The position numbers and the translations under genes are program-made. Positions 3,715-43,083 of a stretch of 64,000 bases of DNA are shown piece after piece (within the stretch, counting starts at the first letter, position 1; every line of letters begins with the position of its first letter). The DNA comes from SAR202 cluster bacterium. Its GTDB lineage: Bacteria; Chloroflexota; Dehalococcoidia; Lucifugimonadales; UBA3495. The DNA is taken from assembly GCA_013204585.1 (NCBI GenBank), contig JABMNL010000003.1, forward strand, positions 6,992-70,991, written 5' to 3'. A model generated the notes under the pieces. That model was not told where the DNA came from. It saw only the letters and a program-made list of their open reading frames with translations, and made no database searches.

Positions 3715-7778
<4,064 letters not shown>

Positions 7779-10380: not shown

Positions 10381-11718
10381 CTAAAGGATTGGCAAATACC
10401 GTTTGGTCTCGTAATCGGTAACGGTCGCCCGGTACTCGTTCCACTCCATCGTCTTGTTCTGAATCACGCTATGCACGATGTGCTCGCCCAATGATTCCTT
10501 TAGTAACTCGCTATCTTCAGCCAAAACAATGGCCTCACCCAAGCTACCGGGAAGGGGTCGTATGCCCCTGGCATGACGTTCTTCGGTGGACATGGAGAAT
10601 ACATTGCCCTCGACTGGCGGCGGCACCGGGTATTCATTTTCAATACCCTTGAATCCGGCGGCCAGCATTACGCTGAAAGCCAGGTACGGGTTGCAAGCCG
10701 GGTCGGGAGCACGGTATTCCACGCGCATGGAACTGGCGTAGCCAGGCTTGTGGGCGGGCACCCTAATTAGGTCGGACCGACTTACATGGGCCCAGGATAT
10801 AAAAGCTGGAGCTTCGAAGCCAGGCACGAGACGCTTGTAGGAGTTGACCCATTGGTTGGTGATCAGAGTAATCTCTGGAGCGTGGTGCAGGAGACCGGCG
10901 ATGAACCGCTTCCCCGTAATCGACAAATGGTGCTCGTCGTCTGTATCGAAGAAGGCGTTCGTATCGCCTTGGAATAGCGACTGGTGAATATGCATGCCAG
11001 AACCGTTCATGCCCGAGATGGGCTTAGGCATGAACGTTGCATAGGCCGACTGCAATTGCGCCAACTCTTTGATGACCAGCTTAGCGGTCATCACGTTATC
11101 GGCCATGGTCAGGGCGTCGGTATATTGAAGGTCTATCTCGTGTTGACTGTGAGCGCCTTCGTGGTGGGAGTATTTGACCGGTATACCCATGTCAGCCAGG
11201 TTTAATACCGTGTCCCGACGAAGGTCAGCCGCCGGGTAGCTGGAGACTTGGTCGTAATAGCCCTGCTGATCCAGCGGCACGGCAGAATGGGAGTCCTTCA
11301 AATAAAAGAATTCCAACTCTGGGCCTACATAGTAGGTGTGACCACTGGTGGCCAAGCGCTCCAAGTTGCGCTTAAGGGCATAACGCGGGTCGCCAATGAA
11401 CGGTTCTCCTGATGGTGTGCGAATGTCGCAGAACATCCTGGCTACGGCATTCTGCCGCGGACGCCAGGGAAGAATGGTGAATGTCGAAGGGTCCGGAAAG
11501 GCGCGCATATCGCTTTCATCGATACGTGCGAAACCCTCAATGGCGGCCCCATCAAATCCCACACCCTGCTCAATGGCATCTTCCAGGTCCTCCACCGTGA
11601 TGGCGAACCCCTTCAGATGGCCAAGAATGTCGGTAAACCACAGGCGAATGAATTTGACATCATTCTCCCGTGCCGTGCGTACCACGAAGTCTCGCTCCGC
11701 AGCCCGCTCTGCGTCCAT
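10381..11718 (-). CDS. glnA: glutamine synthetase type I (alpha-like, probably not adenylylated)
   Basis: 445 aa with FIRLWFTDILGHLKGFAI, GSGMHIHQSLF and SYKRLVPGFEAP motifs. The position of the adenylylation Tyr reads NVFSM. A GGGAGGA Shine-Dalgarno is present. Confidence 0.95.
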   Translation of the reverse strand: MDAERAAERDFVVRTARENDVKFIRLWFTDILGHLKGFAITVEDLEDAIEQGVGFDGAAIEGFARIDESDMRAFPDPSTFTILPWRPRQNAVARMFCDIRTPSGEPFIGDPRYALKRNLERLATSGHTYYVGPELEFFYLKDSHSAVPLDQQGYYDQVSSYPAADLRRDTVLNLADMGIPVKYSHHEGAHSQHEIDLQYTDALTMADNVMTAKLVIKELAQLQSAYATFMPKPISGMNGSGMHIHQSLFQGDTNAFFDTDDEHHLSITGKRFIAGLLHHAPEITLITNQWVNSYKRLVPGFEAPAFISWAHVSRSDLIRVPAHKPGYASSMRVEYRAPDPACNPYLAFSVMLAAGFKGIENEYPVPPPVEGNVFSMSTEERHARGIRPLPGSLGEAIVLAEDSELLKESLGEHIVHSVIQNKTMEWNEYRATVTDYETKRYLPIL

Positions 11719-11748
11719 ATCCGTCCTCCCAGACCGATGCTTTTTGTT

Positions 11749-11761
11749 CTTAGTTACTAAG
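11749..11761. promoter_or_regulatory. 13-bp perfect palindrome CTTAGTtACTAAG about 31 nt upstream of the glnA start
   Basis: Read directly from the sequence. It contains the GTTAC/GTAAC-like half-site also found upstream of both amt genes. Confidence 0.25.
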
Positions 11762-11872
11762 TATACCGGCTTTGACGCCGATTAATACCGCTGTAAAGAG
11801 AGCGGCGGGCAGGTCTGACCACCTCAGACGTCCTTGCCCGCTAACTAAACTATCTAGAAATTAGGCTGTGGA

Positions 11873-13084
11873 CTAAGGCTCGAAAGCAGGTTCTCCGTGC
11901 TCGGAGATATCCAGTCCCGTGCCCTCGCTTGCCTCATCAACGCTGATGCCAATGGTGTACTTCAGAGCCAGCATGATGGCCCCGGTGACCACGAACGACC
12001 AGCCACCAGCAGCGCCGATACCGATAAGCTGATCGACAATCTGTTCACCACGGCTCACGCCGTCGCCCAAGGCTGCGTAGCCAACGCCCACGAATAAGCC
12101 GGTGGCCAACGCTCCCCAGACTCCGCCAATCCCATGAACGCCGAAGACAGCCAAAGCGTCATCGACCTTCAAGCGGTACAGCAATTTGACCGCGCTGTAG
12201 CAAAAGACGCCAGCGCCCAAACCGATGACCAGAGCGGGCATCGGCCCGACAAAACCAGCGGCCGGTGTAATGGCCACCAGACCGGCAACCGCGCCGGATG
12301 CCGCACCAACTGCGCTGGGTTTCTTGTCTATCATCCAGGACATTACTAGCCAAGAAATCATACCCGCCGCAGCAGCTGTGTTGGTCACCACGAAGGCGTT
12401 GGTAGCCACGCCGTCGGCAGATAGACTGCTTCCTGCGTTGAACCCAAACCAGCCAAACCAGAGTAGGCCAGCGCCCAGAACGACCATCGGCACGTTGGCC
12501 GGACCCATGGGCTGTTCCAAGAACCCAATCCTGCGACCGATAACCAGGGCCGCAGCCAGCGCTCCGACTCCAGCGCTAATGTGGACGACTGTCCCACCTG
12601 CGAAGTCCAAGGCGTTTGTCTCCGTCCCTATCCAGCCGCCACCCCAGACCCAGTGGGCCAGCGGGGCGTAGACGATGGTCACCCACAACACTATGAAGAT
12701 ACATAGTGCGCTGAACTTCATCCGTTCGGCGAAGGCACCGGTGACTAGCGCCGGGGTGATGATGGCAAACATGGCCTGGAATATCATGAATGCCTGATGG
12801 GGAATATTGTCCGAGTAGGGTCCAGGAGCGTCAGCCGAGACCCCCTTCAAACCGATCCAATCCAGATTTCCAATGAAACCGCCAACATCTGGGCCGAAGG
12901 CCAAGCTGTAGCCCCAGAGAACCCAGACAATTCCGACCAACCCCATGCTTACGAAGCTGTACATGATGGTCGAAACGATGTTTTTCTTGCGGACCAAACC
13001 GCTGTAGAAAAACGCAACTCCCGGCGTCATCAGCAATACCAGGGCTGAAGCCGCCAGAACCCAAGCCGTATCTCCCGTATTCAT
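11873..13084 (-). CDS. amt: ammonium transporter (Amt family), copy 1
   Basis: 403 aa, about 11 TM helices, Amt signatures FAFGP.., DFAGGTVVHISAG, FGWFGFNAGS and VHGIGGVWGAL. Confidence 0.95.
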   Translation of the reverse strand: MNTGDTAWVLAASALVLLMTPGVAFFYSGLVRKKNIVSTIMYSFVSMGLVGIVWVLWGYSLAFGPDVGGFIGNLDWIGLKGVSADAPGPYSDNIPHQAFMIFQAMFAIITPALVTGAFAERMKFSALCIFIVLWVTIVYAPLAHWVWGGGWIGTETNALDFAGGTVVHISAGVGALAAALVIGRRIGFLEQPMGPANVPMVVLGAGLLWFGWFGFNAGSSLSADGVATNAFVVTNTAAAAGMISWLVMSWMIDKKPSAVGAASGAVAGLVAITPAAGFVGPMPALVIGLGAGVFCYSAVKLLYRLKVDDALAVFGVHGIGGVWGALATGLFVGVGYAALGDGVSRGEQIVDQLIGIGAAGGWSFVVTGAIMLALKYTIGISVDEASEGTGLDISEHGEPAFEP

Positions 13085-13119
13085 CCTAGTTACACCGCCG
13101 TCGTTTTTATTTAGACAAT

Positions 13120-13163
13120 AAACAATCCATGCTACTGTGCCTTGCGGCTAGCATGGATTGTTT
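13120..13163. promoter_or_regulatory. perfect 15-bp inverted repeat (aaacaatccatgcta N14 tagcatggattgttt) in the amt copy-1 leader
   Basis: The arms are 13120..13134 and 13149..13163, ending 36 nt upstream of the start codon. No U-tract follows on the coding (minus) strand, so it is not a standard terminator. Confidence 0.4.
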
Positions 13164-13356
13164 GGTCTAACCTATTTAAGCGCTATGTGCCGGGCCGGAA
13201 CCCAAGCGCGCATTATGAATTTCGGGCTACTTGCGGAGGAACAGCCGCGGAAGAACTACCCACGCCCCGAACAATCCTACAAAAGCTCCTGCTGCTGCTA
13301 GTGCTATCATCGGTCCCGTCCTCCGCTTTAGTATTCTCTTAGTTTGCCTTTCACTT

Positions 13357-13394
13357 GTTACAGATCATTTGCGTAGATGTTAAATGTTTGTTAC
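13357..13394 (-). promoter_or_regulatory. phased GTTAC/GTTAA pentamers (13357, 13379, 13390; 11-bp register) upstream of amt copy 1
   Basis: GTTAC 13357..13361, GTTAA 13379..13383 and GTTAC 13390..13394 fall at spacings of 22 and 11 bp. An extra GTTAC sits at 13452..13456. Confidence 0.35.
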
Positions 13395-13477
13395 ATCCCC
13401 ACCCGACTTGAGCGTGGGTGTTGCCAATCTAGTCCCAATTTGCCCGCGAATGTTACAAACGAGTCCAGCGGGTCCGG

Positions 13478-13513
13478 AGAAAACCGCCAGAGGAACGACG
13501 GACCCTCTGGCGG
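13478..13513 (-). terminator. rho-independent terminator of amt copy 2
   Basis: A 10-bp stem ccgccagagg / cctctggcgg (13484..13493 and 13504..13513) is followed on the minus strand by TTTTCTCC. Confidence 0.7.
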
Positions 13514-13621
13514 CGTCTCCGGGTGATGGGATTACCGTGCCGTCACTGCCCTACACCCCATTCCGCGGGGGCACGGAATTCAAAAGTCCAATGGAGTAGC
13601 AACGTCAGTTAAGCTAATGAA

Positions 13622-14983
13622 TTAGCCAGAACCGTAAGCTGGCAGGGCGTGCTCCGCGATGTCTAACCCTTCCATCTCTTCCTCTTCTGTTGCCCGGACA
13701 CCCATGGTGACCTTAAGCAGCAGGAACAGTGCAAAGCCAGTCACCAGACCCCAGGCCAGCACCACACCCATACTGATTAACTGGGACACAATCTGCTCGT
13801 AGTCTCCGGCCACCAGGCCTTCCACGCCGTTGTTTCCATTGGCGAAGATACCCACCGCCAGCAGACCCCAGAGTCCGGTTACTCCGTGTACCGAGACCGC
13901 ACCCACCGGGTCGTCAATCTTGAGTACCCGTTCAATCACTATTAATGACGCCATCATTATTGGAGCCGCTATAGCGCCGATAACCACGGCGGACCAGGGT
14001 TCCACGAAAGCAGCCCCAGCCGTGATGCCCACCAATCCGGCCAATGCGCCGTTACAAGCGAACAGCACATCGGTCTTTCCGGTGCGTATCAGCTGGATGT
14101 ACAGGGCGACCACAGCGCCAGTCGCGCCAGCCAACAGGGTGTTGATGGCGTTTAGGCCAATGGAATCGCCAGTGTTGATGTTGAAGCCGAACCAACCGAA
14201 AAACAGGATGAACGTGCCAATTACCACGTAGGGCACATTGTGTCCTGCCAATATGTTGGAGCTTCCATCACGGTTGAACTTTCCAGTCCGTGGGCCAACC
14301 ACTACTGCTCCGGCCAAGGCCACGAAGCCACCCACCGCGTGCACTACGCCAGAACCGGCGTAGTCCGCCGCTGCCGGCAGGCCGATAGTGTCCAGAGCGC
14401 CAAGCCAGCCACCGCCCCAGACCCAGTGACCGTACAGGGGGTAGATGATTGCGCCAATGATAAAGCTGTAAGCCAAGTAGGCTTGAGTCTTCGTCCGCTC
14501 GGCAACGGCTCCGGCCACAATTGTGGCGGCGGTGCCGGCAAAGACCATCTGGAAGACAAAGTCCACGTAGGTCTGGCCATCAGCCGCGTCGGTCAAGAAG
14601 TAGTTGGTGTTACCAGCTATCCCGGCCACCGACGTTCCCCACATCAACGCAAATCCAAACGCCCAGAAGGACAACGACGCGATGGCGAAGTCCATAAAGC
14701 TTTTGGTCATGTAGTTGGTGGTATTCTTGGCGCGAATTAGCCCAGCGCCAAGGAAAGCGAACCCGGCCTGCATGAAAAAGACCAAGAACGCGCCGAACAT
14801 CCAAATCAGGTTGGACCCCTGATCCAGCTTGTCCGCATCTGCAGTGATGTCTTGGGCGAATGCCACGTTGTACCCGGCAATAATTCCACAAGCCACCAAC
14901 CCGGCCACCACAAAGGGCAATACCCTTCGCAAGAACCGGGCACCGTTTGACTGTGGTGCCGCTTCAATCAGCATACTTGCCAT
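13622..14983 (-). CDS. amt: ammonium transporter (Amt family), copy 2, with a longer N-terminus
   Basis: 453 aa with Amt signatures DYAGSGVVHAVGG, FGWFGFN and VHGVTGLWGLLAVG. AGGAGG Shine-Dalgarno. Confidence 0.95.
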   Translation of the reverse strand: MASMLIEAAPQSNGARFLRRVLPFVVAGLVACGIIAGYNVAFAQDITADADKLDQGSNLIWMFGAFLVFFMQAGFAFLGAGLIRAKNTTNYMTKSFMDFAIASLSFWAFGFALMWGTSVAGIAGNTNYFLTDAADGQTYVDFVFQMVFAGTAATIVAGAVAERTKTQAYLAYSFIIGAIIYPLYGHWVWGGGWLGALDTIGLPAAADYAGSGVVHAVGGFVALAGAVVVGPRTGKFNRDGSSNILAGHNVPYVVIGTFILFFGWFGFNINTGDSIGLNAINTLLAGATGAVVALYIQLIRTGKTDVLFACNGALAGLVGITAGAAFVEPWSAVVIGAIAAPIMMASLIVIERVLKIDDPVGAVSVHGVTGLWGLLAVGIFANGNNGVEGLVAGDYEQIVSQLISMGVVLAWGLVTGFALFLLLKVTMGVRATEEEEMEGLDIAEHALPAYGSG

Positions 14984-33170: not shown

Positions 33171-34049
33171 ATGGCCACGGTAGGAAGCGGAAAATACACC
33201 TACGAATACATCCCCAATTGGGCCAAGTTGCCCGCGGGCCAAGCAATGGGCACGGCCAGCGCCGTCGCCACCGACTCCCAAGACCGAGTCTACGTCTTCC
33301 AGCGGACAAATCCCCCGGTATTGGTCTTTGACCGAGAAGGCAATTTCCTAAACTCCTGGGGTGAAGGCATGTTCGTCGACCCCCACGGCATATTCATTAA
33401 GGACGACATTGCCTATCTCACCGACCGGGAAGGGTCGATTGCAATGAAATGCACTCTGGACGGCAAGCCCCTGCTGTCCATCGGAACCAAGGGCGAGTAC
33501 TCGGACACCGGCTGCGAAAAGGCGGGCGATGTCTGTCCCCGCTCCGCCGGGCCTTTCAACTACGTCACCGAGATGGTGCCAGCGCCCAACGGCGACCTAT
33601 ACATCTCCGACGGCTACCGGAACGCCAGGGTCCACCGTTTCTCGGCGGCCGGTGATTTGATCTCATCCTGGGGCGAGCCTGGCAAGGGCGGCCCTAACCA
33701 GTTCCACCTGCCCCACAGCTTGGTTGTCGGCGACAACGGCCAGGTGTACCTCTGCGACCGCGAGAACAGCCGCGTCCAGGTGTTCTCTCCCGACGGTGAA
33801 TACATCACCATGTGGACCGACATGAACCGCCCCTTGGACATTTCAATAGACAGCGAGGGCATCTTCTACACCAGTGAGCGCCCGGATGACAACAAACCCG
33901 CTCAAATGAGCGTGTTGGACGGTGACGGCAAGGTGCTGGAGCGGTTCCCGTGCAATTCGGCCCACGGCTCGTGGGTGGATGCCCACGGCGACCTGTACCT
34001 GTCACTGGGCGCGGAGAAAAGCGTCGACAAGTACGTCCGGGTAGGGTAA
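33171..34049 (+). CDS. NHL-repeat six-bladed beta-propeller protein (peptidyl-alpha-hydroxyglycine lyase-like fold)
   Basis: 292 aa with repeated blade signatures (VATDSQDRVYVF, PHGIFIKDD..YLTD, PNGDLYISDGY, PHSLVVGDNGQVYLCD, GIFYTSE) and no signal peptide. Confidence 0.7.
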   Translation: MATVGSGKYTYEYIPNWAKLPAGQAMGTASAVATDSQDRVYVFQRTNPPVLVFDREGNFLNSWGEGMFVDPHGIFIKDDIAYLTDREGSIAMKCTLDGKPLLSIGTKGEYSDTGCEKAGDVCPRSAGPFNYVTEMVPAPNGDLYISDGYRNARVHRFSAAGDLISSWGEPGKGGPNQFHLPHSLVVGDNGQVYLCDRENSRVQVFSPDGEYITMWTDMNRPLDISIDSEGIFYTSERPDDNKPAQMSVLDGDGKVLERFPCNSAHGSWVDAHGDLYLSLGAEKSVDKYVRVG

Positions 34050-36237: not shown

Positions 36238-37638
36238 ATGGAATGGCCCCCTCACCACCCCGATAGCTACCGCCCCAGCCCAGACCAGGAATATTGGTCT
36301 CGGGAATTGGAAACCATGCCGCCCGAAGAGCGGGAGCGGCACATCTTGGGGAAGTTGCAACGCCAGGTCCGCTACGCTTTCAAGAACTCGGGTTTCTATC
36401 AGGAGTTCTACCGGGACGCTCCGGTAAATCCCGCCAACCTAGCCAGCCTGGAAGAATTCGCCCAGCTACCGATTCTGACCAAGGAAGACATCCGTAGGGA
36501 GCAGGAGTTACATCCTCCATACGGCCGGTTCCTCTGTGTGCCGCCCCAAGACATCTTTCGCGTGCACGGCACGTCCGGCACCACCGGCAGGCCCACAGTC
36601 TTCGGAATCGGCAAGGACGACTGGGACCGCATCGCCGAAGCCCATGCCCGTATTCTCTGGGGTGCCGGGCTACGCCCCGACGACACGGTTATGGTGGCCG
36701 CAGTGTTCAGCCTTTACGTCGGTAGCTGGGGGGCCTTGGTCGGCGCAGAACGACTGGGGGCAACCTGCTTTCCCTTCGGCAGCGGTGCGCCAGGCCAGAC
36801 CGAACGGGCAGTCGAATGGTCGGCGATGGTAAAACCGTCCGTCCTCTACGGCACCCCGTCGTATGCCCTCTACCTGGCCGAGACTGCCCGGCAGATGGGG
36901 CTAGACCCCAAAGAGGACTTCGGATTCCGGTTTATGTTTTTCTCTGGGGAGCCGGGGGCCAGTGTCCCCGCAACCCGCCGTTTAATAGAGGAGACCTTCG
37001 GCTGCTATATCGTCGACCAGGGAAGCATGGCCGAAATGACCCCCTGGATGAGCAATTCCGGCTGCCGTCACCTGGATGGTGGCATGCACCTCTGGCAAGA
37101 CATCGTCTACACCGAGATGGTGGACCCTCAATCCAAGCTGAACCTGCCGTTGGGCGAGGAAGGGGTGCCGGTTTATTCCCACACCGAGCGCACGTCCCAG
37201 CCCATGATTCGCTACTGGTCGGGAGACATCGCCCGTTGGGACATGGTGGACTGCCCCTGCGGCCGCACCTATCCAACACTGGTGACCGGCATCTACGGCA
37301 GAGTGGACGACATGATTATCGTCCGGGGACAAAACGTGTTCCCGTCGCGCATCGAAGACGTGCTCCGTAGCATGGACGAGTTCGGTGGCGAGTTTCGCCT
37401 GGTGTTGGAACGAGAGAGCGGTCAGATGGACCGACTAACCGTACAGGCCGAAGTTTTGAACAAAGAATTCGCCGCCCAAGAATTTGACCCCGGCGCGTTG
37501 GAGGCAGTTCGAGAACGATTCACGGCAGAACTGCGGCGGGCCATTGGAGTCAGCGTGGCCGTTGAACTGAAACCGGCCGGGGAATTCGAGCGAACCCAGT
37601 TCAAGGCCCGCCGCATTATTGACCTGCGAACGCCCTAG
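36238..37638 (+). CDS. phenylacetate-CoA ligase (PaaK)-family adenylate-forming acyl-CoA ligase
   Basis: 466 aa with VHGTSGTTGRPT (P-loop of the PaaK/F390 synthetase family), GEPGAS and YWSGDIARW motifs. Confidence 0.85.
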   Translation: MEWPPHHPDSYRPSPDQEYWSRELETMPPEERERHILGKLQRQVRYAFKNSGFYQEFYRDAPVNPANLASLEEFAQLPILTKEDIRREQELHPPYGRFLCVPPQDIFRVHGTSGTTGRPTVFGIGKDDWDRIAEAHARILWGAGLRPDDTVMVAAVFSLYVGSWGALVGAERLGATCFPFGSGAPGQTERAVEWSAMVKPSVLYGTPSYALYLAETARQMGLDPKEDFGFRFMFFSGEPGASVPATRRLIEETFGCYIVDQGSMAEMTPWMSNSGCRHLDGGMHLWQDIVYTEMVDPQSKLNLPLGEEGVPVYSHTERTSQPMIRYWSGDIARWDMVDCPCGRTYPTLVTGIYGRVDDMIIVRGQNVFPSRIEDVLRSMDEFGGEFRLVLERESGQMDRLTVQAEVLNKEFAAQEFDPGALEAVRERFTAELRRAIGVSVAVELKPAGEFERTQFKARRIIDLRTP

Positions 37639-37736
37639 TCCCGGTACCCCCCAGAATGCCCCAGAATCCCCAAAGAGATTAAAGAACCTGGGGACTACCC
37701 TCTATTGATTCGTCTCTTACGCTGTGCCGCAAACGA

Positions 37737-37766
37737 TTGACATAATTTTAATATTAATTTTAAAAT
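37737..37766 (+). promoter_or_regulatory. near-consensus sigma-70 promoter (TTGACA-N18-TAAAAT) inside a ~60-bp AT-rich island
   Basis: TTGACA is at 37737..37742 and TAAAAT at 37761..37766. The spacer contains the 10-bp palindrome TTAATATTAA (37748..37757). It lies about 155 nt upstream of ATG 37921. Confidence 0.5.
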
Positions 37767-37920
37767 ATGACCAAGTTTTTAGGATAAAAGCAGGGTGTCT
37801 TGTCGTCGGACTGACTAGTCCGGCGAATTTCGATGCCCCTTGATGGGGTGTTCCGGTCTCTAATCGACCGTGACCCCGACGCCCGTGGTGCACGTTGTGA
37901 CGGAGGAAGGGAGTACGGGT

Positions 37921-40794
37921 ATGCAGAATTCGGTATCGTTATTCACAATGACGCTGGTGTTCCTGGCAGTCGTTGCAGTGGCATTCTTCTCCAATCAATA
38001 TCCCACCTATGCGGAAGACGACCACGGCGACTACCGGTTCGCGTCGACCCACATTAACATCGGTTCAGGGGCCATCTCTGGCGCTATCGACCCTTCAGAC
38101 ATTCTGTTCGACGTTGATTATTTCTCCTTTCAAGCCGGACGAGGCATTGAATACACCTTCGTATTAGATGAAACCACGGTGGTTGACGCCAACATCACCG
38201 TCGTCAACTCATTGTCCCGTGGCAGCGGCAGTTCACCCGGTCAAAAAATTAACGTTACTGGCGGACAGAAGACCATTACCTGGACCGCCCGCACCACAGA
38301 CACCTATTACATCGAAGTTTCCGGAACCATTAATAATGCCGACGGTTCCTTCTATCTGGGCAATTACACTCTTAGCGCTTTCGAAGACACCCGATATTCG
38401 GATCGCCATGCCGAAGACCGTAACGACGCCACGCAGATTTCTGCCGGAAATGTGTACCAGGGCGCGATTAGCCCCTGGACCAACCAGCCCACTCTGAGTA
38501 ATACCGTTGACGGCGGCGACGATAACGACTATTTCTCTTTCACGGCCCAGCGTGGCGTCAAATATAACGTGGAAGTCGATTTGGGAACATCTGAGGGAGT
38601 GGAAATAGCCATCCACACCGCCTTCGATGGCATGGCAAAAACCAACGACGGAATTGGCAACACGTTGGCATGGATATCTCCCCAGAACAACACCTACTAT
38701 ATCGCCGTGTCCGGCACCAACCGGGTGCGCAACTCGAACGGCACCTACGCTATCAAGCTAAACGCCGAGACCATTCTTTTGGATCAGCACGCAGAATCGG
38801 GCAACGGCGCCACCGTGATTAGCTTCGGAAACGCGCATCAGGGGGCAATCAGTCCCGCCGACGACTTGGACTACTTCTCTTTCCCAGCGCTGCGTGGCGT
38901 CAAATACATGCTTGACGTGACACTCGGCAGCGCGGACGGGGTTGCACTATCGGTGGTTGATACCAACGAGACCAGCCTGGTATCCAATGGCGGCGTGGGG
39001 ACGACCCTTGAATGGCTGGCTCCCGCCACTGGAACTTACCTAGCCGTAGTCTCGGCCTCCCCCCAAGTGCCGGACGTTATCGGCACCTATTCGCTGAACC
39101 TAAGCAGCGACACTACTTTGCAAGACCGCCACGGTGATTCGGTCCTGACGGCTTCGGCGATTAGTTTCGGCAATGCCCATCCCGGCGCGATAAGCCCGGA
39201 GACCGATCGCGATTATTTCTCTTTCTACGCCGAACGGGGCGTCAACTATTCGGTGGCCTTGGAGATGATCTCCGCCAACAGCGCCGTCATCTCAATCGAG
39301 AATGGTAATGGCGAAAAGATTAGCACCACCAACGGATTGGGCACCGGCCTAGGATGGACGGCGGCCAGCACCGGCACATTCTACGTTGTGGTATCCCATT
39401 CAGCGCAGGCCACCCAAGGCATAGGCACCTATTCCCTGACCGTAGAAGCGAACACTAGCCTTGAGGACCGTCACTCAGACACGGCTCTGAGCGGCACGCC
39501 GGTCAGCTTCGGCACGGTGTACCAGGGGGCAATTAGTCCTAAATCTGACCTAGACTACTTCTCATTCCCCACCGAACGGGGCGTGGAATACACTCTCGAT
39601 CTGACCTACGGGTCGGCCACGGCAGTATCCCTTGAGGTCAACACACTAAACGGCGGTTCGGAAACCGGGGCCCGCAACTTCGGAGAGAGCAACATAGTTA
39701 AGTGGACCGCCCCTGATTCGACCACTTATTACATTGCCATCTCATCTTCAGCTAAAGCGTCAGAACCTACGGGCACCTATACGCTGAAGGTTACACCCGA
39801 CACCACCTTACAAGACCGACACAGCGACTCTGCTGCCAACGGCACTGTCATAGGGTTTGGCAATGCCATCTCCGGAGCCATCAGCCCAGCCGACGATTAT
39901 GACTACTTCCGATTCCGGGCCGAGAAGGGAATCACCTACACCGTCGACGTGAATCTGGGCACCGCTGAAGGCGTCCGTTTCTCAGTAGAACAACCACTGG
40001 CCGGGTTTTCTACTTCAAACTTTGGCGTAGAAAAATCTCTCGAATGGGAAGCCCCGGCAACCGGCGATTACACACTGTCTGTCTCAGCCTCAGGCCGGGT
40101 GGGAATTCCAACCGGCACATATCACATAACTGTAAACCGCCAGGGAGACGCCCGGCCTCCGTCACCCTCGGTAGCGCAACCTACACCAGTTCCCACGGAA
40201 GGGCCGCCGCCTAAGATAATAGTGCCCGAAACGACAGCCTTGGTGCTCGATTCTCGGGTGTCACCAACAGGCAGCATTATCCGAGTGCCGGTGAAGCTCA
40301 ACAAGGCCGAGGGCGTCACTAGTCTTGGGTTCACGCTGCACTACAACACCGACGCGCTCCGAGTAATCGGTGTGGAGCAAGGCTCTCGGCTGACAACGGA
40401 GTCCTTTAGTTACGACAACGACACGCCAGGCCAGGTCCGGTTCGGATTTGCCGTGACCAAGGGTAACGGTGCCGGGGGGACAGCGGCGGTGGTCGAGTTT
40501 CAGGTCATCGGCACGGAAGGAACGGTCAGCCCACTTACCCTGTCCGACGCTTTGGTGAGCCACCGTTCGGGCGACCCGTTAACAGTGCAATTGGTGGGAG
40601 CAGATTTCAAGGTGGGCCCCAAGATTCAGGGAGACGCGGACGGCGACAGCCAAATTACTGCCATGGATGCCCTATTGGCCCTGAAGATGGCGTCGAACCT
40701 ACTGACTCCAGACCTTTCTCTGGACATCAACAACGACGGCAAGATAACTATCGATGACGCACGAATCATTCTGAACATGGCCCGGCCGAGCTAG
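37921..40794 (+). CDS. secreted protein: signal peptide + 6 PPC-type (pre-peptidase C-terminal-like) repeats + Pro-rich linker + cohesin-like domain + type-I dockerin
   Basis: Starts MQNSVSLFTMTLVFLAVVAVAFF (GGAGG-rich Shine-Dalgarno; track ORF 37870 is an extension). There are six ~114-aa units with ..DRHxD..ISFGN..QGAISP.DD.DYFSF.A.RGV.Y... The cohesin-like segment is SIIRVPVKLNKAEGVTSLGFTLHYNTDALRVIG...VVEFQVIG. The dockerin duplicate is GDADGDSQITAMDALLALKM / DINNDGKITIDDARIILNM. Confidence 0.85.
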   Translation: MQNSVSLFTMTLVFLAVVAVAFFSNQYPTYAEDDHGDYRFASTHINIGSGAISGAIDPSDILFDVDYFSFQAGRGIEYTFVLDETTVVDANITVVNSLSRGSGSSPGQKINVTGGQKTITWTARTTDTYYIEVSGTINNADGSFYLGNYTLSAFEDTRYSDRHAEDRNDATQISAGNVYQGAISPWTNQPTLSNTVDGGDDNDYFSFTAQRGVKYNVEVDLGTSEGVEIAIHTAFDGMAKTNDGIGNTLAWISPQNNTYYIAVSGTNRVRNSNGTYAIKLNAETILLDQHAESGNGATVISFGNAHQGAISPADDLDYFSFPALRGVKYMLDVTLGSADGVALSVVDTNETSLVSNGGVGTTLEWLAPATGTYLAVVSASPQVPDVIGTYSLNLSSDTTLQDRHGDSVLTASAISFGNAHPGAISPETDRDYFSFYAERGVNYSVALEMISANSAVISIENGNGEKISTTNGLGTGLGWTAASTGTFYVVVSHSAQATQGIGTYSLTVEANTSLEDRHSDTALSGTPVSFGTVYQGAISPKSDLDYFSFPTERGVEYTLDLTYGSATAVSLEVNTLNGGSETGARNFGESNIVKWTAPDSTTYYIAISSSAKASEPTGTYTLKVTPDTTLQDRHSDSAANGTVIGFGNAISGAISPADDYDYFRFRAEKGITYTVDVNLGTAEGVRFSVEQPLAGFSTSNFGVEKSLEWEAPATGDYTLSVSASGRVGIPTGTYHITVNRQGDARPPSPSVAQPTPVPTEGPPPKIIVPETTALVLDSRVSPTGSIIRVPVKLNKAEGVTSLGFTLHYNTDALRVIGVEQGSRLTTESFSYDNDTPGQVRFGFAVTKGNGAGGTAAVVEFQVIGTEGTVSPLTLSDALVSHRSGDPLTVQLVGADFKVGPKIQGDADGDSQITAMDALLALKMASNLLTPDLSLDINNDGKITIDDARIILNMARPS
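38014..40140 (+). repeat. in-frame tandem coding repeats, period about 340-345 bp (first interval ~383 bp), six copies (PPC-like domains)
   Basis: The DRHxD-encoding anchors are at 38401, 38784, 39124, 39466 and 39812, and the first copy is near 38014. The copies are diverged at the DNA level. Confidence 0.7.
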
Positions 40795-40804
40795 GGAGTA
40801 AGAG

Positions 40805-41416
40805 ATGCGCTGGTTGTTAGAAGTCACGTTCATTGGATTAACCTCTAGCTGGAAATGGGTGGCAACGTCGGTCGCCGTAGTCGGCACCCTTGTCGGCATC
40901 TTGTTCGCTTTCGGAGTCTTCAGCGGCGGTGGTGGTGGCGGCAGCGAAGGAACGCCCCCGTTGGTCGTGTCACCAACCCCAATTCCGGCAGCAACAGCCC
41001 TACCAGATCCAACAGCAACTCCAGCCCCTAGGGTAATCTCGGTGCCAATCCTAGCCACCAAGGCTAGCAACGTGGGCAGCTTGGAATTCGTCCTAGTTTA
41101 CGACCCGGCCAAACTCGAGTTTGCCCAGGTTGAACGGGGCGCACTAGCCGGAAACGCGCTAATCGACTCCAGTTCACCTGGGCCGGGGCGACTCTGGGCT
41201 GGGATTATCGACGTCCAAGGATTCGACGGCAGCGGTCCGATAGCGGTGGTGAAGTTCACTGTTCGGAGAGAAGTTAGCGGCTCCATGCCTTTCACCCTGG
41301 AAGACATTGCTGCCTTCGACGCCAGCACCCTGGTGGACATTGTCACCGTAACGACAGCGGGACAATTCAACGGACCCGACTTATCTCCTCTGTCGCCAAT
41401 AGTAACGTTCCAATAA
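40805..41416 (+). CDS. membrane-anchored cohesin-domain protein
   Basis: 203 aa: TM helix WVATSVAVVGTLVGILFAFGVF, a Gly6 and Pro/Thr linker, then the cohesin-like SNVGSLEFVLVYDPAKLEFAQVERG...IAVVKFTVRRE. GGGAG Shine-Dalgarno; it starts 10 nt after the upstream stop. Confidence 0.8.
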   Translation: MRWLLEVTFIGLTSSWKWVATSVAVVGTLVGILFAFGVFSGGGGGGSEGTPPLVVSPTPIPAATALPDPTATPAPRVISVPILATKASNVGSLEFVLVYDPAKLEFAQVERGALAGNALIDSSSPGPGRLWAGIIDVQGFDGSGPIAVVKFTVRREVSGSMPFTLEDIAAFDASTLVDIVTVTTAGQFNGPDLSPLSPIVTFQ

Positions 41417-42078: not shown

Positions 42079-43083
42079 CTACAGTTTTCCCAACCTCACG
42101 AACCGCCCACCTATCAGCCATTCTGCCACGTAAATATTCCCGTCTCCGTCAACGGAAATTCCGTGGGGGCTATTGAATTTGCCAGTCTCCAATAAGCTGG
42201 TGGGGATAATCTTGCCCGATTCGTCTTTGTTATTGGGCCAGCCTTCGACCTCGCAAACCGGAAGATTGTCACAGAGAAAGCAGACCACGTTATCGTCCAC
42301 GTCGCAAACCACCAGGCGGGCGCGCAACTCCGCGATAACCATCAGGTCGCCGTGAACCGCGAAGCCGCTGGGAGTGGTGAAAACACCGCTGCCGAAGGCC
42401 CGCTCATAGTTGCCCTCTAAGTCGTATACCTGGACTCGGCCATTGGCCCGGTCGGCGACATATAGTTCGGGTTCGGACTTGCGACGGTCAATGAATATGC
42501 CGTGGGGGCAACTGAACCGTCCTGTCTGCCCTTCTTCGCCGTTGATGCTGGCCAGGTAATTCCCCGAACTATCGTAGTGGTGGACATAGCTCTGGCCGTA
42601 CCCATCAGCCACCCAAATGTCACCGTCGCCGCCGTGCCGTTCTTCATTGACCGCCACCAAGGTTGGTGAGTACATCCCCTCTTGGTAGACGTCCAGGTCC
42701 GGGCGTTCCAAACTCATCAGAACATTCCCCTCTAAGTCCATCTTCAACACCTGACCGCGAGCGCCTGCTCCCGGATATTGATAATCCAGACCGTGCTGGC
42801 GTTTCCGGCCATTGTCGGCAATCCACAGAAGTTCAGCATCGCCTTCTTTGACGATGGTAATACCGTGGGCGTCTGCCAGGTCAACCTGCCAAGAACGGAC
42901 TAGGTCTCCATTGGCAGCCAAGAGCATCATTGTGGGGTCGCCGGGATGGTAGGTAATAATCTGCCCGGCTTCCGTAACCGCGACACCGTGGTGCGCCCAG
43001 CCGGTGTTCTTGGTGGCTGAATCCGGTATCTTGGCCCACTGGTCATCCCACTGGTATCGGTTGTCTCCCTGACCTATCTGCAT
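42079..43083 (-). CDS. NHL-repeat beta-propeller protein, paralog-like to 33171..34049
   Basis: 334 aa with repeated blades (AHGITIVKEGD..LWIADNG, GDIWVADGYG, PHGIFIDRR...LYVADRANGRVQVYD, PHGISVDGDGNIYVAE). Confidence 0.7.
   Translation of the reverse strand: MQIGQGDNRYQWDDQWAKIPDSATKNTGWAHHGVAVTEAGQIITYHPGDPTMMLLAANGDLVRSWQVDLADAHGITIVKEGDAELLWIADNGRKRQHGLDYQYPGAGARGQVLKMDLEGNVLMSLERPDLDVYQEGMYSPTLVAVNEERHGGDGDIWVADGYGQSYVHHYDSSGNYLASINGEEGQTGRFSCPHGIFIDRRKSEPELYVADRANGRVQVYDLEGNYERAFGSGVFTTPSGFAVHGDLMVIAELRARLVVCDVDDNVVCFLCDNLPVCEVEGWPNNKDESGKIIPTSLLETGKFNSPHGISVDGDGNIYVAEWLIGGRFVRLGKL

What the first reader, a model, noticed from the sequence alone, without database searches (positions are those of the whole stretch)
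37921..41416. Non-cellulosomal cohesin-dockerin module: one secreted protein with 6 PPC repeats, a cohesin and a dockerin, plus a membrane-anchored cohesin partner
Gene 1 (37921..40794) encodes a signal peptide, six PPC-like domains, a Pro-rich linker (PPSPSVAQPTPVPTEGPPP), a cohesin-like beta-sandwich and a canonical duplicated calcium-binding dockerin (GDADGDSQITAMDALLALKM / DINNDGKITIDDARIILNM, nt 40630..40785). Gene 2 (40805..41416, 10 nt downstream) encodes an N-terminal TM anchor, a Gly6 and Pro/Thr linker and a second cohesin-like domain. There is no glycoside hydrolase, CBM or other dockerin-bearing enzyme nearby. The parts list allows the dockerin of gene 1 to bind the anchored cohesin of gene 2 (cell attachment). 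It also allows the cohesin of gene 1 to capture the dockerin of another gene-1 molecule (head-to-tail polymerisation) or of unknown cargo. That would give a self-assembling surface filament or lattice displaying PPC domains. Scattered cohesin/dockerin genes are known in non-cellulolytic microbes, but I know of no characterised function for such a compact self-contained pair.
Basis: partly seen in the sequence, partly recalled or inferred. Interest (0 to 1): 0.72.

Follow-up and report, generated by a model that had tools for sequence, protein, structure and literature searches.

The report
SAR202 anchored cohesin–dockerin surface tether
Two adjacent genes of a marine SAR202 (Chloroflexota) bacterium encode a membrane-anchored "socket" (cohesin) and a large secreted protein that has a matching "plug" (dockerin), a socket of its own and six calcium-binding repeat domains. 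The pair is a bacterial relative of an archaeal plug-and-socket pair whose role in the cell is still unknown, and it probably tethers a surface coat or adhesin to a cell that has no cell wall.

Summary
Gene 1 (37921-40794) encodes a signal peptide, six PPC/collagen-binding-like repeats, a Pro-rich linker, a cohesin and a C-terminal dockerin. Gene 2 (40805-41416) encodes an N-terminal TM anchor, a Gly/Pro/Thr stalk and a cohesin. The window comes from a SAR202 (Dehalococcoidia) genome.

The pair is conserved, adjacent and in the same chromosomal position in 27 of 27 assessable SAR202-type genomes. It evolves much faster than its neighbours. No other cohesin or dockerin, and no GH or CBM, lies in the 64 kb.

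The pair is not unique. The cohesin-(about 5 aa)-dockerin "dyad" is a widespread C-terminal cassette fused to many non-catalytic binding domains. In 64 of 73 metagenomic cases it is followed directly by a small membrane-anchored cohesin gene (lipobox, N-terminal TM or C-terminal TM), and sometimes by dockerin-only genes.

The closest solved structure for both cohesins is the Archaeoglobus fulgidus non-cellulosomal cohesin. In that organism a neighbour-gene cohesin-dockerin pair binds strongly in vitro.

Best reading: gene 2 tethers gene 1 to the membrane of a peptidoglycan-less cell, and gene 1's own cohesin may let chains grow. Tethering is well supported by comparison. Polymerisation and biological role are untested. 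This is a new member of a known but functionally unexplained kind.

The parts
37737..37766 (+). Promoter-like site TTGACA-18 nt-TAAAAT in an AT-rich patch, about 155 nt upstream of gene 1
   Evidence: 11 of 12 consensus matches. The region as a whole has no more such sites than shuffled sequence, so this is a consensus match only. Sequence shown.
37902..37913 (+). Shine-Dalgarno-like GGAGGAAGGGAG before the ATG of gene 1
   Evidence: read directly from the sequence.
37921..40794 (+). Gene 1: 957-aa secreted PPCx6-cohesin-dockerin protein (mature part acidic, 105 D+E against 53 K+R, no Cys)
37921..38013 (+). Signal peptide (aa 1-31, hydrophobic core LFTMTLVFLAVVAVAFF, putative cleavage after TYA)
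   Evidence: Sequence. A31 and the following DDHG are conserved. AlphaFold gives helix 5-24 at low pLDDT. Cleavage is inferred; no signal-peptide predictor was available.
38017..40152 (+). Six PPC / collagen-binding-domain-like beta-sandwich repeats. Nucleotide boundaries: 38017-38400, 38401-38781, 38782-39123, 39124-39465, 39466-39813, 39814-40152. Each begins D-x-H-[AGS]-[DE] and carries a D-x-DYF-x-F motif.
   Evidence: Pfam PPC 33.4 bits. Repeat alignment. pLDDT about 85-95. 5iku ColG tandem CBD matched by sequence (E = 3e-3) and by fold. The repeats are positional orthologs across homologs.
40153..40218 (+). Pro-rich flexible linker (RPPSPSVAQPTPVPTEGPPPKI)
   Evidence: pLDDT below 50 for aa 744-766. 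Only 31-50% identity among homologs.
40228..40614 (+). Cohesin 1 (aa 770-898), type-I-like, 'dyad-type' subfamily
   Evidence: Pfam 52.8 bits. 2xdh TM 0.82-0.83, rmsd 2.3-2.4, 31% identity; type I cohesins TM 0.76-0.82; type II 0.58-0.63.
40615..40629 (+). Five-residue junction (GPKIQ) between the last cohesin strand and the dockerin. A similarly short junction is seen throughout the dyad family.
   Evidence: The dyad model has pLDDT 90.7 and pTM 0.79.
40630..40791 (+). Dockerin (aa 904-957): two Ca-binding loops plus helices
   Evidence: Pfam 19.7 bits here and 25-26.6 bits in orthologs. Loop residues invariant. Helices 914-924 and 944-953. General dyad-dockerin HMM scores 77.7 bits.
40805..41416 (+). 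Gene 2: 203-aa membrane-anchored cohesin. GGGAG Shine-Dalgarno-like site at 40795-40799; 10 nt intergenic gap after gene 1.
40805..40921 (+). Invariant N-terminal segment MRWxLEVxxIGxxxSWKW followed by a 22-residue TM helix (WVATSVAVVGTLVGILFAFGVF). No Cys, so not a lipoprotein.
40922..41032 (+). Gly6 plus Pro/Thr/Ala stalk, of variable length among homologs
   Evidence: linker length differs by up to about 30 aa.
41033..41386 (+). Cohesin 2, 'anchor-type' subfamily
   Evidence: Pfam 43 bits. PDB sequence hits 2xdh, 1g1k, 2vn5. The anchor-type HMM separates it from dyad-type cohesins.
41387..41413 (+). Invariant C-terminal tail PLSPIVTFQ. It shares the motif [AP]P-x-I-x-F with anchor cohesins of unrelated cassettes.
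   Evidence: Function unknown.

Best explanation
The two genes form one operon-like unit that builds a non-covalent tether on the surface of a monoderm, peptidoglycan-less SAR202 cell.

Gene 2 sits in the membrane (N-in TM helix) and holds a type-I-like cohesin a few nanometres out on a Pro/Thr stalk. Gene 1 is exported by Sec. Its six PPC/collagen-binding-like domains, stiffened by Ca2+ as in ColG, form a rod. Its C-terminal dockerin plugs, Ca2+-dependently, into gene 2's cohesin.

The cohesin packed directly against that dockerin (the 'dyad') is a second socket for the same kind of dockerin. Further gene 1 molecules can therefore be added head-to-tail: gene 2 is the initiator and gene 1 the extender. 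In related cassettes, dockerin-only proteins would act as caps.

The result is a displayed array of non-catalytic binding domains: a coat or adhesin, not an enzyme complex.

Status of each step:
- Shown: domain identities, conservation, gene linkage, diversity of anchors.
- Inferred: the Doc-Coh2 contact (from gene linkage and the A. fulgidus precedent), Ca2+ dependence, and chain growth.
- Unknown: what the PPC array binds.

The confidence of 0.6 is for the statement as a whole: about 0.75 for tethering and about 0.4 for chain growth.
For: - Domain calls and folds.
- Gene 2 follows gene 1 in 27 of 27 assessable SAR202-type loci, at 31-69% (gene 2) and 41-80% (gene 1) identity.
- The chromosomal position is fixed: MCM, B12-binding, PaaK-like, [pair], HbpS-like. 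Neighbours are 77-93% identical where the pair is only 31-50% identical, as expected for exposed surface proteins.
- The Coh-Doc dyad is a cassette fused to PA14, Laminin_G_3, FG-GAP, CBM96, LCCL, TSP3, DUF4082, Ig-like and similar domains, with almost no enzymes.
- 64 of 73 such genes in metagenome loci are followed within 300 nt by a small cohesin-only gene of the gene-2 subfamily. Each of these carries a lipobox signal peptide, an N-terminal TM or a C-terminal TM. One is a named non-SAR202 Dehalococcoidia genome.
- Dockerins within one cassette are homogenised: 83-91% identical against a 57% median between loci.
- In A. fulgidus the dockerin of ORF2375 binds the cohesin of the adjacent ORF2376 strongly and specifically (PMC9705933; PMC9012536).
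- 2xdh, the A. fulgidus cohesin, is the best structural and sequence match of both cohesins.
- SAR202 isolates are monoderm, lack peptidoglycan genes and have few glycoside hydrolases (PMC10444878).
Against: - No binding was measured or modelled.
- AlphaFold fixes the dockerin relative to its own cohesin (pTM 0.79). The dyad's socket or plug may therefore be occupied in cis, or the dyad may be a rigid unit without chain growth.
- Dyad-type and anchor-type cohesins are long-separated subfamilies. This may mean they do different jobs rather than bind the same plug.
- The dockerin of this particular protein is just below Pfam's cutoff.
- Dockerin-bearing proteins elsewhere in the genome were not searched for.
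- Expression and localisation are unknown.
Confidence: 0.6

Rival explanations
1. Closed or rigid dyad. Gene 1's dockerin is packed on its own cohesin, either as a cis cohesin-dockerin clasp or in an X-module-like supporting role. Coh1 is then not a free socket and nothing polymerises. Gene 1 is a monomeric surface protein, tethered one-to-one to gene 2.
For: - Only five residues separate the last cohesin strand from the dockerin, here and across the dyad family.
- The dyad-only AlphaFold model has pLDDT 90.7 and pTM 0.79, which implies a defined mutual orientation.
- Gene 1 and gene 2 are co-transcribed-like, with a 10-nt gap, which suggests roughly 1:1 stoichiometry.
- Dyad-type and anchor-type cohesins are distinct conserved subfamilies.
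Against: - Monomer AlphaFold often renders intermolecular co-evolution as intramolecular contacts, and the coordinates could not be inspected.
- Related cassettes encode extra dockerin-only proteins with near-identical dockerins. These need a second socket.
- From memory of Voronov-Goldman 2011, both A. fulgidus cohesins bind the dockerin in trans.
- R. bromii Amy4, with its own cohesin and dockerin, was judged able to self-aggregate (PMC4611034).
Confidence: 0.2
2. Conventional scaffoldin. Gene 1 is an adaptor scaffoldin and gene 2 an anchoring scaffoldin of an enzyme complex. The dockerin-bearing hydrolases are encoded elsewhere in the genome.
For: - The wiring (anchored cohesin, then dockerin-cohesin adaptor, then further dockerins) is exactly that of anchoring and adaptor scaffoldins (established cellulosome knowledge; PMC4959524 listed).
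- Some related cassettes carry CBM96 or 3-keto-disaccharide-hydrolase-like domains.
- The rest of the genome was not searched.
Against: - There is one cohesin per protein, with no multi-cohesin scaffoldin in any of more than 100 loci of this family.
- No GH, CBM or second dockerin lies in 64 kb or within 6 kb either side in 29 SAR202 loci.
- Cargo domains across the family are lectin- or adhesin-like, not catalytic.
- The third genes are small dockerin-only proteins without recognisable enzymes.
- Cultured SAR202 has a limited GH repertoire.
Confidence: 0.08
3. Envelope (S-layer-like) protein. Gene 1 is the main proteinaceous coat of the peptidoglycan-less SAR202 cell and gene 2 is its membrane stalk, analogous to SlaA/SlaB of Sulfolobales. 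Cohesin-dockerin joints provide both anchoring and lateral linkage.
For: - SAR202 strain JH545 shows a layer outside the membrane 'reminiscent of the S-layer' and has no peptidoglycan genes (PMC10444878).
- Gene 1 is large, acidic, Cys-free and built of Ca-binding beta-sandwiches.
- It is a single conserved locus in a core chromosomal position, evolves fast and has a strong promoter-like site.
- The anchor sits on a stalk of variable length.
Against: - There are no abundance data and no evidence of lattice symmetry.
- The wider dyad family carries many different adhesin-like cargos, often several cassettes per locus. That pattern suits accessory surface proteins better than a single coat protein.
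- It is unknown whether JH545 (group I) carries the pair.
Confidence: 0.15

Closest known systems
Archaeoglobus fulgidus non-cellulosomal cohesin-dockerin pair (ORF2375 / ORF2376; cohesin structure PDB 2XDH)
   Same: - Adjacent genes in a non-cellulolytic organism.
- The dockerin is at the C-terminus of one protein (aa 432-506 of ORF2375). A cohesin begins right after the N-terminal leader of the neighbour (aa 29-162 of ORF2376). Both from PMC9705933.
- 2xdh is the best sequence and fold match for both cohesins here.
- The visible part of 2xdh scores 91 bits on the dyad-type cohesin HMM.
- From memory, the parts list is also one dockerin plus two cohesins.
   Different: - Bacterial, mesophilic and marine rather than a hyperthermophilic archaeon.
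- The cargo is a six-fold PPC array.
- The anchor is an N-terminal TM helix plus a Pro/Thr stalk.
- Sequence identity is only about 31%.
- Binding is measured in A. fulgidus and not here.
- Biological function is unknown in both.
Cellulosomal anchoring and adaptor scaffoldins (e.g. C. thermocellum SdbA/OlpB with CipA; Acetivibrio cellulolyticus ScaA/ScaB)
   Same: The wiring is the same: a cell-bound cohesin, a protein carrying both a dockerin and cohesin(s), then further dockerins. The cohesin fold is type-I-like (TM 0.76-0.82). The dockerin has two Ca2+ loops.
   Different: - One cohesin per protein.
- No SLH or sortase anchor.
- No X-module.
- No glycoside hydrolases or CBM3 nearby.
- The cohesin and dockerin are fused with only 5 residues between them.
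- The cargo is non-catalytic.
Ruminococcus bromii amylosome protein Amy4 (cohesin and dockerin in one polypeptide)
   Same: A single protein carries both socket and plug. The authors note its potential to self-aggregate through its own cohesin and dockerin (PMC4611034).
   Different: Amy4 is an amylase within a set of dockerin-bearing enzymes. No enzyme is involved here.
ColG/ColH collagenase tandem collagen-binding domains (PPC family, PDB 5IKU)
   Same: Tandem PPC-type beta-sandwiches. An acidic inter-domain segment and a D-x-DY[YF]-x-F motif align with the Ca2+-binding residues (alignment).
   Different: Six copies rather than two, no protease domain, about 19% identity, and an unknown ligand.
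ANME archaeal cohesin/dockerin proteins
   Same: Many surface proteins with cohesin and/or dockerin in non-cellulolytic marine microbes, with a proposed role in surface organisation or cell contacts (PMC9012536). The archaeal-looking loci L033-L035 show clusters with a PGF-CTERM-anchored cohesin.
   Different: ANME genomes hold large repertoires, including multi-cohesin proteins and dockerin-tagged substrate-binding proteins. SAR202 shows a single minimal pair per locus.

Membership tests
Cohesin (Pfam PF00963), type I-like | HMM score above the curated cutoff | tested here: met
   Gene 1 scores 52.8 bits and gene 2 scores 43 bits, against a cutoff of 24.1.
Cohesin (Pfam PF00963), type I-like | Nine-stranded jelly-roll beta-sandwich that superposes on solved cohesins | tested here: met
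   Gene 1 cohesin: 2xdh TM 0.83 with rmsd 2.3; 1g1k TM 0.80; 1aoh TM 0.80; type II TM 0.58-0.63. Gene 2 was not modelled; it has sequence hits to 2xdh, 1g1k and 2vn5.
Cohesin (Pfam PF00963), type I-like | Binds a dockerin | not testable with these tools
   No multimer prediction or assay was available.
Dockerin type I (Pfam PF00404) | HMM score above the curated cutoff | tested here: inconclusive
   19.7 bits against a cutoff of 22.9 for this protein. Orthologs score 25.2-26.6 bits. Dyad relatives score up to 31-38 bits.
Dockerin type I (Pfam PF00404) | Duplicated segment of about 22 residues, each with a 12-residue EF-hand-like Ca2+ loop (D1, N/D3, D5, D12) followed by a helix | tested here: met
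   The loops are GDADGDSQITAMD and DINNDGKITIDD. The loop residues are invariant in 54 homologs. Helices at 914-924 and 944-953.
PPC / bacterial pre-peptidase C-terminal domain (PF04151) | HMM above cutoff and a beta-sandwich fold like collagenase collagen-binding domains | tested here: met
   33.4 bits against a cutoff of 25.9, with three stretches. The other repeats are assigned by internal homology at 32-49% identity. 5iku is matched by sequence and fold.
PPC / bacterial pre-peptidase C-terminal domain (PF04151) | Attached to a secreted peptidase (the family's usual context) | tested here: not met
   No peptidase domain was found in gene 1 or its homologs.
Cellulosome / enzyme-scaffolding system | Scaffoldin with multiple cohesins | tested here: not met
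   There is one cohesin per protein in all homologs, including the 1300-aa forms.
Cellulosome / enzyme-scaffolding system | Set of dockerin-bearing glycoside hydrolases and a CBM | tested here: inconclusive
   None lies in 64 kb or in the flanks of 29 related loci.
A. fulgidus-type non-cellulosomal Coh-Doc cassette (dyad gene plus anchored cohesin gene) | C-terminal cohesin-dockerin dyad with a short junction | tested here: met
   35-45% identity to dyads on unrelated proteins. The dyad HMMs score 113.5 bits (cohesin) and 77.7 bits (dockerin).
A. fulgidus-type non-cellulosomal Coh-Doc cassette (dyad gene plus anchored cohesin gene) | Small membrane-anchored cohesin gene immediately downstream | tested here: met
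   Gene 2 starts 10 nt downstream and has a TM anchor. The pattern holds in 27 of 27 SAR202 loci and 64 of 73 metagenomic dyad genes.
A. fulgidus-type non-cellulosomal Coh-Doc cassette (dyad gene plus anchored cohesin gene) | Measured binding of the dockerin to the neighbour's cohesin | not testable with these tools
   Known only for A. fulgidus (PMC9705933).
S-layer protein | Very abundant, forms a 2-D lattice that covers the cell | not testable with these tools
   Only circumstantial support: a layer seen by TEM in SAR202 JH545, and an acidic multi-beta-sandwich protein with an anchor.

The most novel reading that the evidence does not exclude
Gene 1 and gene 2 are the long-sought surface layer of SAR202. 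The outer coat of one of the most abundant bacterial lineages of the dark ocean, which has no peptidoglycan, would be a Ca2+-dependent array of PPC rods. The rods would be plugged into membrane stalks and into each other through cohesin-dockerin joints. More generally, the 'anchor cohesin / Coh-Doc extender / dockerin cap' cassette would be a modular envelope-building and surface-display system of Dehalococcoidia and some archaea. That would give non-cellulosomal cohesin-dockerin modules their first physiological role.
Probability: 0.15. Interest if true: 0.85.

Novelty: new member of a known kind. Interest (0 to 1): 0.5.

Why it matters
Cohesin and dockerin modules outside cellulosomes have been known since 1999, and binding has been shown for A. 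fulgidus. What they do in cells is still unknown.

This work places a minimal pair in the core genome of SAR202, a globally abundant, wall-less marine lineage that now has cultured members. It also shows that the pair belongs to a widespread, rule-following gene cassette:
- a membrane-anchored cohesin;
- a cargo-cohesin-dockerin protein;
- optional dockerin-only proteins.

That gives concrete, testable wiring (initiator, extender, cap) and a candidate for how peptidoglycan-less Dehalococcoidia attach proteins, or a coat, to their surface.

If only the tethering is true, the pair is an orthogonal, Ca2+-switchable mesophilic cohesin-dockerin pair of biotechnological interest, and a marker of fast-evolving SAR202 surface antigens (phage or grazer interface).

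Tried and rejected
1. Modelling the Doc-Coh2 complex as a single-chain chimera. I built a 35-row paired alignment from SAR202 and metagenome loci (A5).

2. Genome-wide inventory of dockerins in the source genome.

3. Naming the organisms of homologs through cluster look-ups. Almost no names came back. I could not establish whether cultured SAR202 JH545 carries the pair.

4. The profile search with the dyad alignment in the word-indexed protein collection returned only short proteins or fragments. It was useful for context look-ups but not for a census.

5. Literature. No paper links SAR202 or Dehalococcoidia with cohesin/dockerin. Peer et al. 2009 and Voronov-Goldman et al. 2011 are not held, so statements about them rest on citing papers and on memory.

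6. Considered and dropped:
- Covariation or mirror-tree analysis to decide which cohesin the dockerin binds. About 50 non-redundant pairs, all sharing one phylogeny, are too few and too confounded.
- Reading the conserved residues of Coh1 as a binding face without coordinates.

7. The weak Pfam hits (Flagellin_D3, EF-hand, DUF7136, AnkX_ins) are below their cutoffs and were ignored.

8. The insert between the PaaK-like gene and gene 1 in other SAR202 loci was checked for a hidden third component. It holds an acyl-CoA dehydrogenase-like gene and an unrelated ORF.

Full report
**1. What is in the window**

Two co-oriented ORFs lie at 37921-40794 (957 aa) and 40805-41416 (203 aa), separated by 10 nt. 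Each is preceded by a Shine-Dalgarno-like site. A promoter-like TTGACA-18-TAAAAT (11 of 12 matches) lies at 37737-37766, but it is only a consensus match.

Pfam results:
- Gene 1 Cohesin: 52.8 bits, above cutoff.
- Gene 1 PPC: 33.4 bits, above cutoff.
- Gene 1 Dockerin_1: 19.7 bits, just below the 22.9 cutoff.
- Gene 2 Cohesin: 43 bits.

NCBIfam has no model for either protein.

The dockerin is nonetheless secure:
- Orthologs score 25-26.6 bits.
- Both 12-residue Ca2+ loops are canonical, and their residues are invariant across 54 homologs.
- AlphaFold predicts the two helices.

Six repeats of 113-128 aa (32-49% identical) each begin D-x-H-[AGS]-[DE] and carry D-x-DYF-x-F. They align with the Ca2+-binding tandem collagen-binding domains of ColG, 5iku.

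The full-length model (54-sequence alignment) has mean pLDDT 85. It shows six confident beta-sandwiches, a disordered Pro-rich linker (aa 744-766), a cohesin (aa 770-898) and a dockerin.

**2. Source and conservation**

Gene 2 is 100% identical to a protein of a 'SAR202 cluster bacterium' MAG. Gene 1 has more than 170 full-length homolog clusters at 35-80% identity. Where they carry names, these are Chloroflexi, SAR202 or Dehalococcoidia.

A scan of one genome per GTDB species returned 29 loci, all Dehalococcoidia/SAR202-type MAGs. One was mislabelled as archaeal. In all 27 loci that extend far enough, a gene 2 homolog follows gene 1 directly.

Longer homologs (1080-1305 aa) have more PPC repeats but still one cohesin and one dockerin.

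The pair sits in a fixed chromosomal context: methylmalonyl-CoA mutase, B12-binding subunit, PaaK-like ligase, [pair], HbpS-like, luciferase-like monooxygenase. The neighbours are 77-93% identical where gene 1 is 41-50% and gene 2 is 31-40% identical. This is a core locus that evolves fast, as surface-exposed proteins do.

Conservation is even along gene 1, and the repeats are positional orthologs.

HMMs built from the family and from more distant relatives find exactly one dockerin and two cohesins in the 64 kb and in each related locus. The remaining genes of the window are housekeeping or metabolic, with no glycoside hydrolase or CBM.

**3. The pair is one instance of a widespread cassette**

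I searched the dockerin alone against 1.84 billion representative proteins. Among its closest relatives were many proteins that share the whole cohesin-dockerin 'dyad' (35-45% identity over aa 772-956) but have unrelated N-terminal parts. Those parts are DUF4082, CBM96, PA14, MG2/Ig-like, DUF642+Laminin_G_3 and FecR domains. One of these proteins is from a named Dehalococcoidia MAG.

A metagenome scan with an alignment of 17 such dyads gave 77 loci.
- Of 73 assessable dyad genes, 64 are followed within 300 nt, on the same strand, by a small cohesin-only gene. That gene scores best with the gene-2-type HMM.
- About 50 Doc/anchor pairs remain after removing those 88% or more identical.
- Every one of these small cohesins has a membrane anchor, but the device differs. 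Most have lipoprotein signal peptides. Some have an N-terminal TM helix, as here. The most distant set has a signal peptide plus a C-terminal TM helix with a basic tail.
- A named non-SAR202 Dehalococcoidia genome shows the same arrangement with a lipobox anchor.
- The bacterial anchors share a C-terminal tail motif [AP]P-x-I-x-F. Gene 2 has the invariant PLSPIVTFQ.
- Cargo domains in 54 dyad proteins are lectin- or adhesin-like (Laminin_G_3, PA14, FG-GAP, TSP3, LCCL, CBM96, GLEYA, PKD/Ig), with almost no enzymes.

Several cassettes add a third gene, a small dockerin-only protein (Dockerin_1 above cutoff in 10 of 10). In six loci its dockerin is 83-91% identical to the dyad's dockerin of the same locus. 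The median between loci is 57%.

Archaeal-looking loci hold clusters of the same parts with a PGF-CTERM-anchored cohesin.

**4. Link to what is known**

By sequence and by fold, the best solved match of both cohesins is 2XDH, the non-cellulosomal cohesin of Archaeoglobus fulgidus (TM 0.82-0.83, 31% identity). Type I cellulosomal cohesins come next, at TM 0.76-0.82. Type II cohesins fit worse, at 0.58-0.63. The visible part of 2XDH scores 91 bits on the dyad-type cohesin HMM.

In A. fulgidus the dockerin at the C-terminus of ORF2375 binds the cohesin of the adjacent ORF2376. In one study's re-analysis of a published cohesin-dockerin array it was the strongest and most specific pair (PMC9705933). 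PMC9012536 also states that archaeal versions bind.

From my memory of the abstract of Voronov-Goldman et al. 2011 (not held), A. fulgidus has one dockerin and two cohesins, and both cohesins bind it. R. bromii Amy4, with cohesin and dockerin in one chain, was noted to be able to self-aggregate (PMC4611034).

No paper in the library connects SAR202 or Dehalococcoidia with cohesins or dockerins.

Cultured SAR202 is monoderm and lacks peptidoglycan genes. It shows a layer outside the membrane 'reminiscent of the S-layer' and has few glycoside hydrolases (PMC10444878).

**5. Mechanism proposed**

Shown: domain identities and folds, strict gene linkage, and a partner cohesin that is always membrane-anchored by interchangeable means. 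The last point is what one expects if the only job of that protein is to hold a socket at the cell surface.

Inferred: gene 1's dockerin binds gene 2's cohesin in a Ca2+-dependent way. This tethers a Ca2+-stiffened rod of six PPC domains to the membrane of a wall-less cell.

More tentative: gene 1's own cohesin accepts the same kind of dockerin, so that gene 2 initiates chains and gene 1 extends them. In other lineages, dockerin-only proteins would cap them. The homogenised dockerins within cassettes and the A. fulgidus data favour this view.

The dyad-only AlphaFold model (pLDDT 90.7, pTM 0.79) shows that the dockerin has a defined position relative to its own cohesin. Because I could not see coordinates, this could reflect any of three things: a rigid dyad that still binds in trans, a cis-closed state, or intermolecular co-evolution drawn as an intramolecular contact.

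The ligand of the PPC array and the physiological role (coat, adhesin, phage or grazer interface) are unknown.

**6. Rivals**

- A closed or rigid dyad without polymerisation (about 0.2).
- A conventional scaffoldin whose enzyme cargo is encoded elsewhere (about 0.08). This is disfavoured by single cohesins, non-catalytic cargos and the absence of GH/CBM genes. It is not excluded, because the genome could not be searched.
- An S-layer-like envelope role (about 0.15). This is the most novel reading that the evidence leaves open.

**7. Verdict**

It is speculative about filaments and lattices. It also overstates uniqueness: this is a new, well-conserved bacterial member of the A. fulgidus-type non-cellulosomal cohesin-dockerin cassette, a known kind whose function is an old open question.

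Interest is moderate, at 0.5. The organism is ecologically important and now culturable, and the cassette rules found here make the question testable. No new principle has been demonstrated.

Noticed in passing
window 40805-40855 and 41387-41413; anchor cohesins in L036-L112: Gene 2 has an invariant N-terminal segment (MRWxLEVxxIGxxxSWKW) before its TM helix and an invariant C-terminal tail (PLSPIVTFQ). Anchor cohesins of unrelated cassettes end with a similar [AP]P-x-I-x-F tail (TPPAINFTR, APSITFSP, NPSITFTQ and others). The function of the tail is unexplained.
   Followed up: partly
L072, L077, L083, L084, L086, L095, L096, L098, L100, L101, L106, L107, L110: Many related cassettes contain a third gene, a small protein whose only recognisable domain is a dockerin. 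In several loci that dockerin is nearly identical to the dyad's dockerin. These proteins may act as caps of cohesin-dockerin chains. No such gene lies near the SAR202 pair.
   Followed up: partly
L069-L071, L074, L077, L087, L098: Tandemly repeated cassettes (dyad gene plus anchor gene, two or three times in a row) with different cargo domains. This suggests duplication and cargo swapping.
   Followed up: no
L033-L035: Archaeal-looking loci with clusters of cohesin and cohesin-dockerin genes. They include a cohesin-rhodanese protein with a PGF-CTERM sorting signal and beta-propeller/PKD proteins with weak cohesin hits.
   Followed up: no
L020 (NYZZ01000038.1): A contig filed under 'Methanobacteriota archaeon' carries a SAR202-type gene 1/gene 2 locus (50% and 42% identity). 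This is probably a binning error.
   Followed up: no
L032 7453-11443; L017 and L018 gene 2 region: In one long-read assembly the gene 1 ortholog appears split into three ORFs: a PPC part, a 131-aa piece and the Coh-Doc part. In L017 and L018 the gene 2 match is split over two frames. These are likely frameshift errors, or real pseudogenisation.
   Followed up: no
window 36238-37920 compared with L003, L006, L009 and others: The gap between the PaaK-like gene and gene 1 is 282 nt in the window but 1.5-3 kb in several other SAR202 loci. There it holds an acyl-CoA dehydrogenase-like gene and another ORF. This is a small indel in otherwise conserved synteny.
   Followed up: yes
window 5778-7778 and 8377-10359: Two large ORFs flank the peptidyl-tRNA hydrolase gene. 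One (666 aa) has no Pfam match. The other (660 aa) has an InhA-like MAM domain. They may be further secreted or surface proteins.
   Followed up: no
window 33171-34049 and 42079-43083 (minus strand): NHL-repeat beta-propeller proteins lie on both sides of the locus. Both are conserved in position in several SAR202 relatives.
   Followed up: partly
window 10381-14983 (minus strand): Glutamine synthetase lies next to two tandem ammonium-transporter genes, an ordinary nitrogen-assimilation cluster.
   Followed up: no
one search hit list (P0241-P0244, P0247, P0252 and others): The top scorers of the dockerin search are proteins with 9-29 tandem dockerin-like repeats (up to 5755 aa). This is a different, repeat-expanded use of the dockerin module.
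   Followed up: no
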